In this document: in pieces, positions 1 to 7,017 of the stretch
Layout: the number at the start of each line of letters is the position of its first letter
Numbering within the stretch: the first letter of the stretch is position 1
NCBI GenBank assembly: GCA_036140295.1
Contig: JAYZYL010000006.1
Coordinates: 34,276 to 98,275 of the forward strand
From: Pseudomonadota bacterium
GTDB lineage: Bacteria > Pseudomonadota > Gammaproteobacteria > GCA-002705445 > GCA-002716945
Reading direction: 5' to 3'
Length of the DNA: 64,000 nucleotides
Made by a program: the position numbers and the translations under genes
The notes under the pieces: generated by a model
What the model was told of the DNA's origin: nothing
Seen by the model: only the letters and a program-made list of their open reading frames with translations
Databases searched by the model: none

Positions 1-930
1 TATTTCCTCATAATGACAATAGCTGCGTTTTCATACCGTATACCTGCAGATGGCTGGAAACCAAAAAATTGGAACAAACCGGATGATGCTACTCTTGAAA
101 AGAAATTAATAACAAAAAACCATGTTCATATTGATCAAGCATTAAAGACACCACAATTCTATATGTTATGGATAGTTTTGTGCTTTAATGTCACAGCAGG
201 AATAGGTGTTTTAGGGGTCGCTAAAACAATGATGACAGAAATATTTAGTAGTGCCTTACCAAACATCGTAGATAATGCATTTGCAGCAACATATGTTTTA
301 ATGATTAGTGTTTTTAATATGATAGGAAGATTTTTTTGGGCAAGCACATCAGATTACATAGGGAGAAAAAATACTTATTATATATTTTTTGTTCTAGGGA
401 TAATTCTATACTTGTCAATTCCTATTACAGCTTCCCAAGTTAGCGTCAACCCAAACATTGTTCTGCTAATCTATTTTTATGCTGCGACAATGATTATTTT
501 TACAATGTATGGGGGTGGTTTTGCAACTATACCAGCATACCTAGCTGACATTTTTGGTACAAGGTATGTTGGTGGAATACATGGTAGACTCTTAACTGCT
601 TGGAGTACTGCTGGTATATTGGGGCCTCTTGCAATAACATCCTTACGATCAAATTCTATTAATAATGCAATGCAGGAATTAATAACAAAAATAGACCCAG
701 TTAAATTTAAAGAAACATTTGGATCAGGAATTGAAAATTTTAATCAATTAGTCGCAACCAAAACTGTAACAATTTCAAAATTAATGGAAATTGCTCCACA
801 GGGAACAATTGATCCCTCTACCACAGTTTATAATTCTACAATGATCTTAATGGCTGTTCTTCTTGGGATAGCTTTGTTTTCAAATTTTTTGATTAGGCCT
901 GTTGCTAAAAAACATCATATGGTAGATTAG
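1..930 (+). CDS. MFS transporter, oxalate/formate antiporter (OFA) family; C-terminal ~305 aa only, gene continues upstream of window
   Basis: Frame is open from nt 1. The translation shows multiple hydrophobic helices and an MFS loop pattern ([18 protein letters not shown] pairs). Stop TAG at 928-930. Confidence 0.6.
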
Positions 931-1163
931 CTGATTCCTTTCATTGTAAGTTTAACTCTTCCTTGACCATCAATGTCGAGTACCTTTACTTGAACTTCAT
1001 CACCTTCTGCCATTTCATCTCTAACACTATTTACCCTTTCTTCTTTAATTTGAGAAATGTGAACTAAACCATCTTTCCCAGGCATTATATTAACAAATGC
1101 ACCGTAATCCATAATTTTTTTCACTTTTCCTGTATATACTTTTCCTATTTCAATGTCTGTCAT
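927..1163 (-). CDS. Stand-alone S1 RNA-binding domain protein (78 aa), paralog of the PNPase C-terminal S1 domain
   Basis: About 76% aa identity to the last 71 aa of the adjacent pnp product ([29 protein letters not shown]...[20 protein letters not shown]). ATG start with AAGAGGA Shine-Dalgarno 8 nt upstream. The DNA is also visibly similar to 1190-1420 (tandem duplication). Confidence 0.6.
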
Positions 1164-1189
1164 TTTGTCCTCTTTTGTTTATATATGAT

Positions 1190-3256
1190 CTAATCTAGAT
1201 CCTTCATTGTAAGCTTGACTCTTCCTTGTTTGTCCACGTCAAGCACCTTCACTTTTACTTCATCGCCTTCTGTTAATACATCTCTTACGTTATTTACCCT
1301 TTCTTGACTTATTTGTGATATATGCACAAGTCCATCGCGATTTGGCGAAATATTAACGAATGCTCCGAAATCCATTATTTTTGCAACTTTCCCTTCATAA
1401 ATTTTATTAATTTGTGGCCCTGCAGTTATGTCTTCAATAATTGATTTTGCATGGTCGCTTTTCGATTGATCAGTCGCGGCTATCTTGACTACACCATCAT
1501 CAGAAATATCTATAACCGCTCCAGTCTCCTCAACTATCGATTTTATTACCGCCCCTCCCTTTCCAATCACTTCAGCAATTTGGGAAGGATTAATTTTTAT
1601 ATGAGTATATCTTGGTGCATGAGATGAAACATCATCTCTAGGTTTTGTGATTGCCTTTGCCATCTCAGCAAGTATGTGTAGTCTTGCTTCCTTAGCTTGG
1701 CTCAATGCATCTGACATTATTTCAGATGTAATCCCATTAATTTTTATATCCATTTGCAATGCATTAATTCCTGATTCTGTTCCTGCAACTTTAAAATCCA
1801 TATCTCCTAAATGATCTTCATCTCCCAAAATATCTGTTAGGACAACAAATTTTTCTTTTTCTTTCACCAAACCCATTGCTATTCCAGCAACAGGAGATGT
1901 GATAGGAACTCCCGCATCCATTAATGATAAACTTGATCCACAAACTGATGCCATAGAGCTTGATCCATTTGATTCCAAGATTTCCGAAACTACGCGAATC
2001 GTGTAAGGAAATGTACCTTTAGCTGGTAGAACAGATTGAATTCCTCTACGTGCAAGCTTTCCATGTCCTATTTCTCTGCGTTTAGGAGAACCTACCATAC
2101 CAATTTCACCAACGGAATAAGGTGGAAAATTATAATGGAAAATAAAACCATCTTCAACTCGCCCAGAAAGTGCATCAATTATCTGAGCATCTTTTTCTGT
2201 TCCTAAGGTTGTAACTACCAACGCCTGAGTCTCTCCTCGTGTGAACAAGGCAGAACCATGTGTTCTTGGAAGCACTCCAAGTTGAACACTTATTGGACGA
2301 ACTGTTTTAGTGTCACGCCCATCTATACGTTTATCCCCTTTTAATATCTTTTCACGCACAATTTCTTTTTGCAATTTGTCAAAATATGATAAAACTTCTT
2401 CGCTATTATCTTCTTCATCATTCATATTTTTTTCTAAAACTTCTTCTTTAATTTTTGATATAGTTTCATTCCTATCTTGTTTGGTAATGATTGAAAAAGC
2501 TTTAGCTAATTTTGATTCATATTTCTCTTTTATAGAATTATAACTTTCTTCATTAATCTCCTTAGGAACCCATTCTATATTTTCAACTCCAACTTCATTA
2601 CATAATTCCTCAATTGCATTTATTATTCCTTGCATTTTTTCATGCCCAAAATTAACTGCTCCTAACATTATTTCTTCAGTAAGTTCTTTTGCTTCTGACT
2701 CAACCATTAGTACAGCATCTTTTGTGCCTGCCACAACTAAATCAAGTGATGAGTTTTCAATTTCTTTTGCTGTAGGGTTTAGTAGATATTTTTCTCCATC
2801 ATAACCAACCCTAGTAGCGCCAAGAGTTCCATCAAATGGAAGTCCTGATAACTTAACGGCTGCTGAAGCAGCAATAATTGCTGGAATTTCTGGTTCTACT
2901 TCAGGATTCATTGAAATCAGGGTTACTATGATTTGTACTTCTCGTTTATATGATGATTCAAAAAGTGGGCGGAGTGGACGATCTATTAATCTACTAACTA
3001 AAGTCTCTTTTTCGCTTGGTCTTCCTTCTCTTTTAAAAAATCCTCCAGGGATTTTTCCAGCTGCATAAGATTTCTCATTGTAATTCACTGTAAGAGGAAA
3101 AAAGTCACGATCACTGTCTTCTTTTGCTGCAACAAGTGTAGCTAAAACAACAGTTCCTTCGATATCTACTATCACTGATGCATTAGCCTGTTTTGCCATT
3201 AAACCAGTTTCAATCTTAATAGACTGATTTCCTATTTCAAATACTTTGGTAAACAT
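1190..3256 (-). CDS. pnp: Polyribonucleotide nucleotidyltransferase (PNPase)
   Basis: 688 aa with two RNase PH domains, KH and C-terminal S1. Start and stop codons verified. Conserved rpsO-pnp order. Confidence 0.97.
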
Positions 3257-3259
3257 TAA

Positions 3260-3529
3260 CTATTTTCTGAGCCCTAACTGTTGTACAAGTTCTTCATAAT
3301 TCGAACTATCTTTCCTTTTTAAATATTTCATTAGAGATTTTCTTTTCATAACCATTTTAAGTAGGCCTCTTCTAGAATGGGTGTCTTTTGAATTTTTTGT
3401 GAAATGATCCTTTAAATTATTAATGTTTGCTGTAAGCAGTGCAATTTGAACTCTAGTTGAGCCACAGTCATTTTCAGTTTTTCCAAATTTTTTAACTACA
3501 TCCTTTTTTAGGTTATTGCCAAGGGCCAT
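3260..3529 (-). CDS. rpsO: 30S ribosomal protein S15
   Basis: 89 aa from the ATG at 3529 (MALGNN...), with GGAG Shine-Dalgarno upstream. Aligns along its full length with S15 (DCGSTRVQIALLT..HSRRGLL..RK.L.YLKRKD). The track start at 3541 is 4 codons longer and lacks a Shine-Dalgarno. Confidence 0.93.
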   Translation of the reverse strand: MALGNNLKKDVVKKFGKTENDCGSTRVQIALLTANINNLKDHFTKNSKDTHSRRGLLKMVMKRKSLMKYLKRKDSSNYEELVQQLGLRK

Positions 3530-3582
3530 AAATTTCTCCATTAACGTCCGAATTCTATCATGAGTTTAGATTAATACAACCA

Positions 3583-4467
3583 TTATTCATTAAAGTTTAA
3601 TAATCTTTTTGGGCAAATCTGATTATTTCTGATAACCCCGATGCCAATTATGTTATTTTTGTTAAATATAGTTATTTGTCTATTATTAAGCACCGAAAAC
3701 CTAAAAACTGATTGTCCTACCCTAATTTTTTCCTCTTCTTTTTCAGTTACTATAAAACTATCAAATTCGCTTAATATATTGTTTATATTAAGAAAATAAT
3801 CTGAACTTATAATAGATTCATTATTTATTTTTTCAAATTTGATCATATCGGTTTCCTCAAATTTTCCTATTTTAGTTCTCCTTAGATCCCAAACATATGC
3901 TCCTATAGATAATTCTTTTCCAATTTCTTCAGCTAAAGTTCTGATATAGGTTCCCTTTGAGCAAGTAACTTTTATTATTAGGGTTGGGTATTGATATTTT
4001 ATAATTTCAATATTATAAATAGAAACTTTTCTAGGTTCTCTTGAAATAGTAATTCCTTTTCTTGCAAGTTTATACAGTTTTTGTCCTCGAACCTTCAATC
4101 CACTAAACATTGGAGGAATTTGAGATAATTGACCTACAAATTTTTTTAATGCCTTTTTAATTATTTCAATAGGAATTTCTTCTAAATTATTATCCTTATA
4201 TTTCTTAATTACTCCTTCCCTGTCACCTGTTGAGCTAATTTCTCCTAACTTACAGTTTACTACATATTCTTTTTGGTAAGATTCAATATAATGAGAAAAC
4301 TTTGTAGCTTCTCCAAATAATATAGGTAACATTCCGTGCGCTAAAGGGTCAAGAATTCCAACAATACCTGCTTTTTTTACATTCAAAATCTTTTTCAAAC
4401 TTTTAAGAGTTTGATTAGATGTAATATTTTTAGGTTTATCTACTAATAATAAGCCATTAATGTTCAT
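3583..4467 (-). CDS. truB: tRNA pseudouridine(55) synthase
   Basis: GILDPLAHGMLP catalytic-Asp motif with a C-terminal PUA-like region. Conserved rbfA-truB-rpsO order. Confidence 0.93.
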   Translation of the reverse strand: MNINGLLLVDKPKNITSNQTLKSLKKILNVKKAGIVGILDPLAHGMLPILFGEATKFSHYIESYQKEYVVNCKLGEISSTGDREGVIKKYKDNNLEEIPIEIIKKALKKFVGQLSQIPPMFSGLKVRGQKLYKLARKGITISREPRKVSIYNIEIIKYQYPTLIIKVTCSKGTYIRTLAEEIGKELSIGAYVWDLRRTKIGKFEETDMIKFEKINNESIISSDYFLNINNILSEFDSFIVTEKEEEKIRVGQSVFRFSVLNNRQITIFNKNNIIGIGVIRNNQICPKRLLNFNE

Positions 4468-4804
4468 TTTTCTTAGATGTTTTCTTAATTATTTTTTCAA
4501 TTCTTTCACCTGAAGATGCTGTCATATCATAAGTAAACTTTATTCTAGGTAATCTTTTTATATACAGATTTTTCGATAACTCATTTTTTATAAAGCTTGA
4601 AGCTTTATTTAATTCTCTTTCAATCTTTTCGGTATCAGTTTGAAAAGTTGTAAAAAATATTTCTGCATATCTTGCATCTTTACTTAGCCTGACACTTGAA
4701 ATTGTTATTGTCTTATTTAATAAAGGGTTCTTAATATCTTTTAAAATTAGTTGAGCAACTTCTTTATGTAATAAATCTTGAATTTTATAAAGGCGATTAT
4801 TCAT
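4457..4804 (-). CDS. rbfA: Ribosome-binding factor A
   Basis: 115-aa KH-like RbfA family protein in the infB-rbfA-truB position. Overlaps truB start by 11 nt. Confidence 0.85.
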   Translation of the reverse strand: MNNRLYKIQDLLHKEVAQLILKDIKNPLLNKTITISSVRLSKDARYAEIFFTTFQTDTEKIERELNKASSFIKNELSKNLYIKRLPRIKFTYDMTASSGERIEKIIKKTSKKNEH

Positions 4805-4812
4805 TATATAGG

Positions 4813-7017
4813 TTATATAGATCTTTTAATTTCTATTTTTTTGAAGACTTCAATTTGGTCTCCAGTTTTTATATCATTATAATCTTTAACTCCTATTCCA
4901 CATTCTGTTCCACTCTTTACTTCCTTAACATCATCTTTGAACCTTCTAAGGGACTCAAGCTCTCCCTCATAGATTACAATGTTATCTCTTAATACTCGTA
5001 TAGGTTGATCTCGTTGAACTAATCCCTCAATAACCATTGTACCTGCTATTGCTCCAAGCTTAGATGATCTAAAGACATCTTTAACTTCCGCTATTCCGAT
5101 AATTTCTTCTTTAATATCTGGCTCTAAGAGCCCAGACAACTGTTGTTTCACGTTATCGATAAGATCATATATAACACTAAAATATTTTAAATCTAGTTGA
5201 TTTGTATCTATTAATTTTCTAGCCTTACTATCGGCTCTCACATTAAATCCAATTATTCTTGCATTGGATGTTTGCGCTAAACTAACATCAGATTCCGTTA
5301 TACCACCAACCCCACTATATATGATATCAAGACCTACATCTTCATTCTCTATTTTTTGTAGAGATGTAGTAATTGCTTCACAGCTACCTTGTACGTCAGT
5401 TTTAATTAGCAAATTAATTATATCTTTTTTGTTAGATCCTTTATTTATATTAAAATCATCAATACTAAAAGTTTTTTGTTTAGCTTGCATTTCTATTTCT
5501 TTTTGCTTTGATTCTCTCATTGATGCAACCTCCTTAATTTTCTTTTCATCTAATGTTGACATTAACTGATCACCAACATTTGGAGTTCCTGATAAACCAG
5601 TGACAACAACAGGAGATCCTGGTGTTGCATTTAAAATTTCCTTATTAAATTCATCATACATTGCGCGAACTCGACCAAACTCTTTTCCAACTAAAATGTA
5701 ATCTTTTTTACTCAATGTTCCACTTTTTATTAAAACCGTAGCAATTGGGCCACGTCCTTTATCTAGAGATGACTCAATTACAGACCCTGTTGCAGGTCCT
5801 TTTTTTGGAGCTTTTAATTCAAGTATTTCTGCTTGTAGCAAGATAGAATCTAATAGATTATCTACTCCTGTTCCTGTTAGTGCAGAAATTTTTGTGAAGA
5901 TTGTATCGCCACCCCACTCTTCTGGTATTACATTTTTTTTACTTAATTCTGTTTGGGTTTTTTCTGGGTCAGCATTTTCCTTATCTATTTTATTAATTGC
6001 TACAATCATCGGTACCTTTGCAGACTGTGCATGTTGGATTGCTTCTTCAGTCTGTGGCATTACTCCGTCATCTGCAGAAACTACTAATATTACAATATCT
6101 GTAATTTGTGCTCCTCTTGCACGCATCGAAGAAAATGCAGCATGTCCAGGTGTATCAAGAAATGTTATTACTCCTTTTTCTGTTTTAACTCTATACGCAC
6201 CTATATGCTGTGTAATGCCACCTGCTTCAGATGTAGCAATCTTTGTTTCTCTTATATAATCAAGAAGAGATGTCTTGCCATGATCAACGTGACCCATGAT
6301 TGTAACAACTGGAGGTCTTGCCTCAAGCTCTTCCTTATTAGATGGCTCTGATTTAAGCATCGACTCTTCATTATTATCATTCTTGCATACTGCTGTATGT
6401 CCCATTTCTTCAACTATAAGTACCGCTGTATCTTGATCTAGTGATTGATTTATCGTAGCCATAACACCCATTCCCATCATTACTTTTATTAATTCTGGTG
6501 ATTTTACAGCTAACTTTTGTGCTAATTCACTGACAGTCATAGAATTCGTTATTTCTACATCCCTTTTTATAGGTTCAGTTGGTTTTTCAAATTGATGGTG
6601 AGGGGTTAAATCTACTTCTGGAGAAATTTTGTTTTCAATATTTTTTCCTTTTTTCTTTTTTGTTTTTAAATGTAATTCTTTTTCTTCAAAATTTTCAAAT
6701 TTTAGATCTTTATCAACTTTAGTTTTCTTTTTTGTTTTTCCAGTACCAACCTTTCCTAGTTTAGGCTTAATTTGAAGATTTTCTTGTGTTGAGTTTTTCT
6801 GTAGAGGTTCCTTTGTATTATTTCTGTTATTTTCTTGATTGATATTACTTTTTGGAGTGCTTGGCTTTACTTCCTCAGTAATTCTTTTTGATAGGGTTTT
6901 CTTCCTTTTTACTTGTATAGTAACAGATTTTGGTGAAGTAGATGAACTGCCCTTTTTAGGGTTCATCCCCTTATGACTTTTTAGCGACAAATTTTTTCTA
7001 TCATTTTTATCAGTCAT
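4813..7017 (-). CDS. infB: Translation initiation factor IF-2
   Basis: Lys/Asn-rich low-complexity N-terminus. G-domain motifs [18 protein letters not shown]-terminal beta-barrel domains. Confidence 0.96.

What the first reader, a model, noticed from the sequence alone, without database searches (positions are those of the whole stretch)
927..1420. Tandem partial duplication of the pnp 3' end creating an intact stand-alone S1-domain gene
Immediately downstream of pnp is a 78-aa ORF consisting of a single S1 domain. It is about 76% identical in protein sequence, and recognisably similar in DNA, to the C-terminal S1 domain of the neighbouring PNPase. It has its own ATG, a good AAGAGGA Shine-Dalgarno and an intact reading frame, and it ends overlapping the convergent MFS gene. 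It therefore looks like a retained functional paralog rather than decay debris. A free S1 module could compete with or assist PNPase, RNase E or S1-type RNA binding. Gene duplicates are unusual in so streamlined a genome.
Basis: seen in the sequence. Interest (0 to 1): 0.55.

Follow-up and report, generated by a model that had tools for sequence, protein, structure and literature searches.

The report
Free-standing S1 gene copied from pnp
Just after the RNA-degrading enzyme gene pnp lies a small, intact gene that is an old copy of pnp's own RNA-binding S1 domain; it is kept under strong selection across a whole clade of abundant uncultured marine bacteria, so it is a real gene for a stand-alone RNA-binding protein whose role is still untested.

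Summary
The ORF is one S1 domain, 73% identical in protein and 71% in DNA to PNPase residues 615-687. It has an ATG and an AAGAGGA Shine-Dalgarno, and its stop overlaps the convergent MFS gene by 4 nt.

It is not peculiar to this genome. At least 120 near-identical 78-79-aa proteins exist, some on more than 1000 marine contigs. All 21 loci examined (14 distinct DNA versions) show rpsO-pnp-S1orf.

- **Selection:** ortholog dN/dS has a median of 0.036, the same as the pnp S1 domain. 62 of 73 codons vary in DNA but only 12 in protein.
- **Origin:** the S1 ORFs form one clade (299/300 bootstraps). Paralog synonymous sites are saturated, so this is one ancient duplication.
- **Distribution:** none of 150 other gammaproteobacterial pnp loci has it.
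- **Fusion excluded:** its frame relative to pnp varies, which rules out read-through.
- **Transcription:** terminator hairpins follow the S1 ORF, not pnp.

Most likely it is a co-transcribed, free ssRNA-binding or chaperone protein, working like Csp, GSP13 or CvfD. That function is inferred, not shown. I rate it a new member of a known kind, of moderate interest.

The parts
927..1163 (-). S1orf: a 78-aa stand-alone S1-domain gene (ATG at 1163-1161, TAA at 929-927)
   Evidence: ORF list. Pfam S1, E = 7e-18. 73% identical to the PNPase S1 domain. Orthologs are intact in 14 distinct lineages, with median dN/dS 0.036.
1168..1174 (-). Shine-Dalgarno AAGAGGA, 4 nt upstream of the S1orf ATG
   Evidence: Read from the sequence. 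The AGAGG core is conserved in all 14 lineages although spacer length varies.
1164..1189 (-). 26-nt A-rich pnp-S1orf intercistronic spacer, with no terminator or promoter
   Evidence: The spacer is 20-27 nt across lineages and the frame relation to pnp varies 0/1/2. No conserved structure: -0.96 kcal/mol, 4 pairs. No promoter-like or terminator-like site on the minus strand here.
1196..1414 (-). pnp segment encoding the PNPase S1 domain (residues 615-687), the donor paralog of S1orf
   Evidence: BLASTP alignment. Codon-register alignment at a 263-nt offset, 71% nucleotide identity.
1190..3256 (-). pnp, a complete PNPase (two RNase PH domains, PNPase domain, KH, S1), 688 aa
   Evidence: Homologs in the clade are 77-100% identical and all 686-690 aa.
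3260..3541 (-). rpsO (ribosomal protein S15). Its stop is 3 nt before the pnp ATG, so it is the first visible gene of the compact rpsO-pnp-S1orf unit.
   Evidence: The same arrangement appears in relatives.
1..930 (+). 3' part of a convergent MFS transporter gene whose stop overlaps the S1orf stop by 4 nt. It is a neighbour, not part of the unit.
   Evidence: The full 559-562-aa gene is seen in L013 and L171-L176. It is absent in L081-L091 and L177-L178, where acs follows instead.

Best explanation
**What is shown.** In the common ancestor of a clade of low-GC, uncultured marine Gammaproteobacteria, the last ~260 nt of pnp (the S1-domain segment plus the stop) was duplicated in tandem. The copy acquired its own start codon and a strong Shine-Dalgarno, and became a separate last cistron of the compact rpsO-pnp unit. 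It encodes a 78-79-aa autonomous S1 (OB-fold) protein. After a burst of change (11 fixed differences from the PNPase S1 domain), it has been held almost constant by purifying selection.

**What is inferred.**
- The gene is co-transcribed with pnp.
- Having a canonical SD, which pnp lacks, it is probably translated at least as well as PNPase.
- The protein binds single-stranded RNA through the conserved S1 surface (Y20, F23, H35, D65, R69).
- It acts in trans as a small general RNA-binding or RNA-chaperone protein in RNA turnover and stress or cold adaptation. That would be functionally like cold-shock proteins and the Firmicute GSP13/CvfD proteins, not like a piece of PNPase.

**Sub-probabilities.** Real, selected protein-coding gene: about 0.95. 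Origin by tandem duplication of pnp's own S1 segment: about 0.85. Free RNA-binding or chaperone role: about 0.45. The overall confidence of 0.55 is for the statement as a whole: a functional stand-alone RNA-binding protein, derived from pnp, that acts on RNA in trans.
For: **Conservation and synteny**
- At least 120 homologs of 78-79 aa at 83-100% identity, some on more than 1000 contigs.
- Always rpsO-pnp-S1orf, in 21 loci and 14 distinct DNA versions, while the downstream neighbour varies.

**Selection**
- dN/dS median is 0.036 (range 0-0.112, 75 pairs), against 0.040 for the pnp S1 domain.
- 62 of 73 codons vary in DNA but only 12 in protein.

**Origin**
- S1orf is monophyletic in 299/300 bootstraps, and its internal topology mirrors that of pnp.
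- Paralog dS is 1.1-2.4 (saturated) and dN about 0.2.
- Base composition is native: GC3 is 0.20 for both S1orf and pnp.
- S1orf and this clade's PNPase share the same short C-terminal end...KLTMKD-x-x-stop.
- None of 150 other pnp loci has a duplicate, and there are no viral relatives.

**Operon**
- The spacer is 20-27 nt with a conserved AGAGG and no conserved structure.
- No promoter or terminator lies between the two genes.
- Hairpin plus U-tract terminators follow S1orf in the loci where acs is the neighbour: -14.5 to -17.4 kcal/mol, z -4.6 to -6.2.

**RNA binding**
- The RNA-binding residues F19, F22, H34, D64 and R68 (PMC6832287) correspond to Y20, F23, H35, D65 and R69. The first four are invariant and R69 is nearly invariant in the family.
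- GSP13 also has Tyr at the first of these positions.

**Precedents**
- The isolated PNPase S1 domain suppresses the cold sensitivity of an E. coli quadruple csp deletion (Xia, Ke and Inouye 2001; only the paper's title was seen, in a reference list).
- The stand-alone S1 protein CvfD is a pleiotropic post-transcriptional regulator that affects cold sensitivity (bioRxiv 10.1101/2020.06.23.167635).
Against: - There is no expression, binding or phenotype evidence of any kind. The function rests on domain identity, conservation and analogy.
- Tight linkage to pnp in every lineage could equally mean a PNPase-specific partner.
- I could not test whether these genomes lack CspA-family proteins, Hfq or ProQ, which the chaperone-substitute idea predicts.
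- The NJ tree places S1orf as sister to the clade's pnp S1 plus that of L001 with only 191/300 support. The exact donor, and the timing relative to the L001 lineage (which lacks the gene), are therefore not firmly resolved.
- The AF2 model built from the shallow alignment is of low confidence (pLDDT 63).
Confidence: 0.55

Rival explanations
1. S1orf is a PNPase-dedicated accessory or modulator. Made from the same transcript, it would either hand RNA 3' ends to the PNPase trimer or compete with the tethered S1 domains for substrates, tuning PNPase activity or protecting some RNAs.
For: S1orf is immediately 3' of pnp, without exception, in all 21 loci, although the downstream neighbours change. 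It derives from PNPase's own S1 domain. [quoted passage not shown] Five of the 11 fixed paralog differences fall at or next to RNA-contact positions (20, 27, 29, 64, 66), which is consistent with altered RNA preference.
Against: No known PNPase-S1 docking surface exists. The isolated S1 domain is monomeric and autonomous in 1SRO (established knowledge; alignment). Linkage may simply be a relic of tandem origin in a compact genome. The E. coli-type pnp leader, where PNPase autoregulates, is absent here because rpsO and pnp are 3 nt apart. A role in that particular circuit is therefore unlikely.
Confidence: 0.25
2. S1orf is a ribosome-associated factor. It would be a GSP13-like helper, or a supplement to ribosomal protein bS1, that assists mRNA binding or ribosome biogenesis.
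For: It sits at the end of the nusA-infB-rbfA-truB-rpsO-pnp translation and ribosome-biogenesis cluster. GSP13 is reported to be ribosome-associated (PMC6832287). The F-to-Y change at the first RNA-contact position matches GSP13 and the DYGAFV motif of bS1 domains.
Against: It scores below the NCBIfam cut-offs for GSP13 (71.7 against 148) and CvfD/Ygs/GSP13 (68.7 against 117), and it lacks their C-terminal tail. There are no ribosome data.
Confidence: 0.1
3. The S1 gene was acquired horizontally (from a phage or another bacterium) and inserted next to pnp by chance. On this view it did not arise by duplication of the resident pnp.
For: Mean identity of S1orf to the clade's own pnp S1 (72.6%) is no higher than to the pnp S1 of one outgroup, L012 (73.2%). 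Support for grouping S1orf with the resident pnp lineage is only 191/300.
Against: It lies head-to-tail directly after the homologous segment. It shares the same short C-terminal end as the resident PNPase. Its GC and GC3 are native. There is no relative in IMG/VR. No free-standing counterpart was found at the 150 other pnp loci examined.
Confidence: 0.05
4. S1orf is decaying duplication debris or a gene-calling artefact and makes no functional product. Alternatively, it is only expressed as a read-through or frameshift extension giving a PNPase with two S1 domains.
For: It is short, adjacent to its parent, and often labelled 'hypothetical' or mislabelled 'PNPase' in databases. In L171-L174 only the pnp stop separates the two frames.
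Against: dN/dS is about 0.04 with saturated synonymous change. The gene is intact in all lineages with a conserved SD and ATG. The frame relative to pnp is 0, 1 or 2 in different lineages, with extra in-frame stops. All 120 closest PNPases are 686-690 aa, so none carries two S1 domains. Rare length variants differ only after the domain core or are adapter or contig-end artefacts.
Confidence: 0.03

Closest known systems
C-terminal S1 domain of bacterial PNPase (E. coli, PDB 1SRO), including the isolated domain expressed alone (Xia, Ke and Inouye 2001)
   Same: It is the direct parent. S1orf is 73% identical to the neighbouring PNPase S1 domain. Its best NCBIfam match is PNPase profile positions 614-688. 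It aligns to 1SRO at E = 8e-24, and all five RNA-contact positions are retained. The isolated E. coli domain folds on its own and, per the title of Xia et al., suppresses the cold sensitivity of a quadruple csp deletion.
   Different: Here the isolated domain is a natural, separately translated gene, not a laboratory construct. It carries 11 fixed substitutions relative to the resident PNPase domain, including F-to-Y at the first RNA-contact residue. It has no KH or RNase PH parts.
GSP13 (YugI) / CvfD / Ygs family of Firmicute stand-alone S1-domain post-transcriptional regulators
   Same: These are small proteins consisting essentially of one S1 domain, with Tyr at the first aromatic RNA-contact position. 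They have stress and cold links and act on many RNAs in trans. This is the best analogue for how S1orf probably works.
   Different: S1orf is not a member. Its scores of 71.7 and 68.7 bits fall below the curated cut-offs of 148 and 117. It is 78 aa, against 113-130 aa with a C-terminal tail. It has an independent origin from pnp within Gammaproteobacteria and a different genomic context.
CspA-family cold-shock proteins (CSD, OB-fold RNA chaperones)
   Same: They are a similar size (~70 aa), a five-stranded OB fold, and bind ssRNA through surface aromatics. A functional overlap is suggested by the PNPase-S1 suppression of csp deletions.
   Different: They are a different sequence family. There is no CSD hit in Pfam at E <= 0.01, and S1orf has no RNP1 or RNP2 motifs.
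Ribosomal protein bS1 (tandem S1 repeats produced by domain duplication)
   Same: It shows the same evolutionary process, duplication of an S1 module, and similar motifs (DYGAFV, GLVHIS).
   Different: In bS1 the repeats stay fused in one polypeptide. Here the copy became a separate cistron.

Membership tests
S1 RNA-binding domain (Pfam PF00575) | Profile score above the gathering threshold over the whole domain | tested here: met
   65.2 bits against a cut-off of 22, E = 6.9e-18, residues 4-75 matching profile positions 2-74 of 74.
S1 RNA-binding domain (Pfam PF00575) | Conserved surface RNA-binding residues (PNPase S1 F19, F22, H34, D64, R68) | tested here: met
   The alignment to 1SRO (3-75 to 2-74) maps them to Y20, F23, H35, D65 and R69. 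Y20, F23, H35 and D65 are invariant and R69 is nearly invariant in 21 family members. The residue list is from PMC6832287.
S1 RNA-binding domain (Pfam PF00575) | Five-stranded OB-fold beta-barrel with a helix between strands 3 and 4 | tested here: inconclusive
   The AF2 model has the topology E-E-E-H-E-E, but mean pLDDT is only 62.9 because the alignment is shallow. The fold is inferred mainly from homology to 1SRO.
Polynucleotide phosphorylase (TIGR03591 / NF008805) | Full-length architecture (two RNase PH domains, KH, S1) scoring above the equivalog cut-off | tested here: not met
   103 bits against a cut-off of 525. Only profile positions 614-688 match. The database labels 'polyribonucleotide nucleotidyltransferase' for this 78-79-aa protein are mis-annotations.
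GSP13 / CvfD / Ygs stand-alone S1 regulators (NF005973, NF040579) | Score above the curated cut-off | tested here: not met
   71.7 against 148 (GSP13) and 68.7 against 117 (CvfD/Ygs/GSP13 subfamily).
GSP13 / CvfD / Ygs stand-alone S1 regulators (NF005973, NF040579) | S1 domain followed by a C-terminal tail (profiles of 113-123 positions; the PDB 2K4K chain is 130 residues) | tested here: not met
   S1orf ends 2-3 residues after the domain at 78-79 aa. The matches cover only profile positions ~2-77.
GSP13 / CvfD / Ygs stand-alone S1 regulators (NF005973, NF040579) | Binds mRNAs or sRNAs and regulates them post-transcriptionally; stress or cold phenotype | not testable with these tools
   This needs RIP or CLIP, genetics or heterologous complementation.
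CspA-family cold-shock proteins (PF00313) | Cold-shock domain profile match with RNP1/RNP2 motifs | tested here: not met
   No CSD hit among the Pfam matches at E <= 0.01.
Translation initiation factor IF1 (PF01176) | IF1 or eIF-1A profile match | tested here: not met
   No such Pfam hit.
Tandem segmental duplicate of pnp 3' end | Head-to-tail adjacency, same strand, homologous over the whole unit, and paralogs derived from the resident gene | tested here: met
   The offset is 263 nt on the same strand, with a gap-free 73-codon alignment. The C-terminal end is shared. S1orf is monophyletic and groups with the resident pnp lineage (299/300 and 191/300). The donor assignment is moderately, not strongly, supported.

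The most novel reading that the evidence does not exclude
S1orf would be the principal small RNA chaperone of these streamlined marine bacteria. It would be a natural counterpart of the Xia-Ke-Inouye experiment, in which the PNPase S1 domain, freed from the enzyme, took over the work of CspA-family (and perhaps Hfq/ProQ-type) proteins that the lineage has lost. Its fixed substitutions around the RNA-binding face would mark that change of job.
Probability: 0.15. Interest if true: 0.6.

Novelty: new member of a known kind. Interest (0 to 1): 0.38.

Why it matters
It is a clean, datable example of a new gene born by copying one domain of an essential enzyme. The copy is preserved for a long evolutionary time in very compact genomes, where spare DNA is normally lost, so the protein must be useful. 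The clade that carries it is extremely abundant in ocean metagenomes: single protein variants occur on more than 1000 contigs. Existing metatranscriptomes and metaproteomes can therefore test its expression directly. If it proves to be an RNA chaperone or a PNPase modulator, it would add a component to RNA metabolism in uncultured marine Gammaproteobacteria. It would also give a natural parallel to the laboratory finding that the isolated PNPase S1 domain can substitute for cold-shock proteins. A practical point: many database entries label this 78-79-aa protein 'polyribonucleotide nucleotidyltransferase' or 'hypothetical', and these should read 'S1 domain protein'.

Tried and rejected
- **Representative library search.** The exhaustive search with the 78-aa protein was swamped by multi-S1 proteins, whose repeated domains add up. 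Only P0024, P0058 and P0069 represented this family, so it added nothing on distant members.
- **Metagenome scan with the family alignment.** It returned 79 ordinary PNPases and only one new duplicate-bearing locus (L091). I used it as a negative control instead.
- **Viral contigs.** No relatives, so the phage-origin idea was dropped.
- **AlphaFold2 on the family alignment.** pLDDT was 63 because the alignment is shallow. I ran no fold search on such a model and relied on sequence homology to 1SRO.
- **Read-through or frameshift fusion with pnp.** Rejected, because the frame relation is 0, 1 or 2 in different lineages, extra stops occur, and no PNPase of about 770 aa exists among the closest 120.
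- **Conserved RNA structure or attenuator between pnp and S1orf.** None found.
- **Ongoing gene conversion between the paralogs.** L175/L176 have a lower paralog dS (about 0.5). However, only 8 of 13 lineage-specific pnp changes match the S1orf state and they are scattered, so this is not established.
- **Similarity upstream of the start codon (SD region against pnp codons ~607-614).** I counted 15 of 26 matches by hand from the alignment. This is suggestive only, so the exact 5' boundary of the duplication is not claimed.
- **Taxonomic identity.** Source names give only 'Gammaproteobacteria bacterium' or 'Pseudomonadota bacterium' MAGs such as TMED257 and CMD49. The window has no rRNA, and literature searches for the assembly names found nothing. 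A SAR86-like identity is my guess from GC content (31.6%) and abundance. It is not a result.
- **One fold (L084).** It used wrong coordinates and is ignored.
- **Csp, Hfq and IF1 searches in the 64-kb window.** They were negative, but a negative in 64 kb says nothing about the whole genome.
Full report
**1. What is in the window**

On the minus strand the window carries truB (3583-4467), rpsO (3260-3541) and pnp (1190-3256, 688 aa). After a 26-nt spacer comes a 78-aa ATG ORF (927-1163). I call this ORF S1orf.

- Pfam finds the full PNPase architecture in the long protein and a single S1 domain (residues 4-75, E = 7e-18) in S1orf.
- BLASTP aligns S1orf residues 5-77 with PNPase 615-687 without gaps: 53/73 identical (73%), E = 3e-35.
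- In codon register, at a 263-nt offset, the DNA is 71% identical. Third positions are only 51% identical.
- An AAGAGGA Shine-Dalgarno lies 4 nt before the ATG.
- The S1orf stop overlaps the stop of a convergent MFS transporter gene by 4 nt.

Identity is 73% rather than about 76%.

**2. It is a conserved gene of a whole clade**

A search of 5.8 billion proteins returned 477 relatives. The best 120 are all 83-100% identical, and nearly all are 78 or 79 aa. Some single sequences occur on hundreds to more than 1000 contigs from marine metagenomes, MAGs and TARA assemblies. Sources label them 'S1 RNA-binding domain-containing protein', 'hypothetical protein' or, wrongly, 'polyribonucleotide nucleotidyltransferase'.

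- Every genomic context retrieved shows infB-rbfA-truB-rpsO-pnp-S1orf. That is 21 loci with 14 distinct nucleotide versions.
- The gene after S1orf differs between lineages. It is either the MFS transporter or, where that is absent, acs-dksA-xseA-guaB.
- PNPase identity within the carrier clade goes down to 77%.
- The nearest relative found without the gene is a single-cell genome, L001 (pnp 74% identical). There dksA follows pnp directly.
- Among 150 other gammaproteobacterial pnp loci with at least 400 nt of downstream sequence, none has a second S1 gene next to pnp.
- No relative exists in the viral contig collection.
- Rare length variants (74-99 aa) keep the domain core. They differ only in the last residues or at contig ends, and one ends in translated sequencing adapter.

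**3. Selection**

| Measure (14 distinct lineages) | S1orf | pnp S1 segment |
|---|---|---|
| Codons of 73 varying in DNA | 62 | 63 |
| Codons of 73 varying in protein | 12 | 16 |
| Median Nei-Gojobori dN/dS | 0.036 (range 0-0.112, 75 pairs) | 0.040 |

- S1orf proteins are on average more alike (92.9%) than the PNPase S1 domains of the same genomes (89.5%).
- Expression could not be examined.

**4. Origin**

- Between the two paralogs of one genome, dS is saturated in most lineages (1.1-2.4, or not computable) and dN is about 0.2. That dN is two to three times the deepest ortholog dN.
- In a neighbour-joining tree of 73 aligned residues, the S1orf sequences form one clade in 299 of 300 bootstraps, on a long stem.
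- The internal split of that clade into a 78-aa and a 79-aa subgroup mirrors the split of the pnp sequences.

This indicates one duplication before the clade radiated, then vertical co-inheritance.

Evidence that the copy came from the resident pnp:
- It lies head-to-tail directly after the homologous segment.
- It shares the unusually short C-terminal end...KLTMKD-x-x-stop.
- Its GC and GC3 are native.
- It groups with the resident pnp lineage plus L001, although with only 191/300 support.

It remains open whether L001 lost the gene or branched off before the duplication. A lower paralog dS in L175/L176 hints at some gene conversion, but the test was not convincing.

**5. Expression signals (sequence-based inference)**

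- The pnp-S1orf spacer is 20-27 nt and A-rich. It has a conserved AGAGG core and no conserved secondary structure.
- The scan finds no promoter-like or terminator-like site between the two genes in the window.
- Where S1orf is followed by acs, strong hairpins with U-tracts lie 30-40 nt after its stop. Their energies are -14.5 to -17.4 kcal/mol and z-scores are -4.6 to -6.2, and the stem sequences differ between lineages. The transcript end therefore appears to be after S1orf, not after pnp.
- The S1orf frame relative to pnp is 0, 1 or 2 in different lineages, and extra stops intervene. No two-S1 PNPase occurs among the 120 closest PNPases. A read-through or frameshift fusion is excluded.
- pnp itself starts 3 nt after the rpsO stop and has no recognisable SD, whereas S1orf has a canonical one. 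I infer that S1orf may be translated at least as efficiently as PNPase.
- The long rpsO-pnp leader used for PNPase autoregulation in E. coli (established knowledge) is absent here.

**6. The protein**

- The RNA-binding residues defined on that domain are F19, F22, H34, D64 and R68 (PMC6832287). They correspond to Y20, F23, H35, D65 and R69. The first four are invariant and R69 is nearly invariant in the family.
- Eleven of 73 positions are fixed differences between S1orf and the PNPase domain across all lineages.
- Five of these are at or beside RNA-contact positions: F-to-Y at 20, positions 27 and 29 in the loop before strand 3, and 64 and 66 flanking D65. This suggests retuned rather than lost RNA binding. 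That is my inference from sequence positions.
- B. subtilis GSP13 also has Tyr at the first aromatic position.
- Net charge does not differ between the paralogs.
- An AlphaFold2 model has the expected strand-strand-strand-helix-strand-strand order but low confidence (pLDDT 63) because the alignment is shallow. I did not use it further.

**7. How it most likely works**

Shown: S1orf is a separately encoded, strongly selected S1-domain protein that descends from pnp and is always linked to it.

Inferred: it is co-transcribed with pnp, folds autonomously as the isolated E. coli domain does, and binds single-stranded RNA.

- **Preferred mechanism (about 0.45).** It is a free, general RNA-binding or chaperone protein acting in trans in RNA turnover and stress or cold adaptation. 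Two precedents support this. The isolated PNPase S1 domain suppresses the cold sensitivity of an E. coli quadruple csp deletion (Xia, Ke and Inouye 2001, seen only as a title in a reference list). The stand-alone S1 protein CvfD of S. pneumoniae is a pleiotropic post-transcriptional regulator that affects cold sensitivity. From established knowledge of E. coli, the nusA-infB-rbfA-rpsO-pnp region is rich in cold-shock-induced genes, which fits this reading.
- **Main rival (about 0.25).** It is a PNPase-dedicated helper or competitor. The unbroken linkage to pnp favours this, as does the 'fly-casting' role proposed for the tethered S1 domains (PMC3376730).
- **Ribosome-associated role (about 0.1).** This would resemble GSP13.
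- **Horizontal acquisition (about 0.05)** and **non-function or fusion (about 0.03)** are unlikely.

**8. Comparison with known families**

- S1orf is a member of the S1 domain family (Pfam, met).
- It is not a PNPase: 103 bits against a cut-off of 525, matching only the last 75 profile positions.
- It does not meet the curated cut-offs of the GSP13 and CvfD/Ygs/GSP13 families (71.7 against 148, and 68.7 against 117), and it lacks their C-terminal tail.
- It has no cold-shock-domain or IF1 match.

It therefore probably works like the GSP13/CvfD/Csp class but belongs to none of these families. It is an independently born, lineage-specific family of stand-alone S1 proteins.

Full-text searches found no paper describing a pnp-adjacent S1 gene or this protein.

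**9. Verdict and limits**

The duplicate is ancient, clade-wide and functional by evolutionary criteria. I rate it a new member of a known kind (small stand-alone S1/OB-fold RNA-binding proteins), with a clear origin story. Interest is moderate at 0.38.

What is missing:
- any expression or biochemical evidence;
- the genome-wide inventory of other RNA chaperones in carriers and non-carriers, which the tools could not provide;
- a firm taxonomic name. Only 'Gammaproteobacteria bacterium' MAG labels were found and GC is 31.6%. A SAR86-like identity is my unverified guess.

Noticed in passing
window 3257-3259 (rpsO stop to pnp start); also L081 1903-1909: rpsO and pnp are only 3-7 nt apart and pnp has no recognisable Shine-Dalgarno. 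The long structured rpsO-pnp leader, which in E. coli carries the RNase III site and mediates PNPase autoregulation, is absent in this clade. pnp is probably translationally coupled to rpsO.
   Followed up: partly
window 927-930; L171 3237/3238; L173 3234-3237: S1orf and the convergent MFS transporter gene abut or overlap at their stop codons (overlap 0-4 nt), which leaves no room for terminators on either strand. The MFS gene is present in some lineages of both subclades (window, L013, L171-L176) and absent in others (L081-L091, L177-L178), where acs follows and a hairpin terminator is present.
   Followed up: partly
L175 and L176, pnp S1 segment against S1orf (about 2755-3240 in locus coordinates): The paralog pair in this lineage has a much lower synonymous divergence (dS about 0.5, nucleotide identity 79-80%) than in all other lineages (dS 1.1-2.4). 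Its pnp shows the S1orf-like states VRD and GDD. This could be gene conversion between the paralogs, but a site-pattern test was weak (8 of 13 sites).
   Followed up: partly
L013 4001-6067: In this MAG pnp is split into two ORFs (4001-5293 and 5303-6067). This is probably a frameshift or assembly error and not a real pseudogene, because the downstream S1orf and the rest of the locus are intact.
   Followed up: no
pnp S1 domain of L081-L086, L084, L091, L177, L178 (79-aa subclade): In the PNPase S1 domain of this subclade the motif NVRDVL has become NVSDVL and GDEV has become GDVV. The free S1orf of the same genomes keeps the Arg. In this respect the free copy is the more conservative of the two paralogs.
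   Followed up: no
protein P0110 (public assembly); also the labels of P0005, P0051, P0062, P0078 and P0060: P0110 ends in ...SCLLYTSPSPRD, which I recognise from memory as the translation of a Nextera adapter, so untrimmed adapter sits at a contig end. Several pipelines label the 78-79-aa protein 'polyribonucleotide nucleotidyltransferase'. P0060 is attributed to a 'Pelagibacterales' MAG although its locus (L175, L176) is the same gammaproteobacterial arrangement, so the contig is probably mis-binned.
   Followed up: no
window 1164-1189 against 1427-1452 (minus strand): In the same 263-nt register as the coding duplication, the S1orf spacer and SD (…AAACAAAAGAGGACAAA) aligns with pnp codons ~607-614 (…ATTATTGAAGACATAAC) at 15 of 26 matches. 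This hints that the Shine-Dalgarno was carved out of duplicated coding sequence. It is not statistically secure in DNA this AT-rich.
   Followed up: partly
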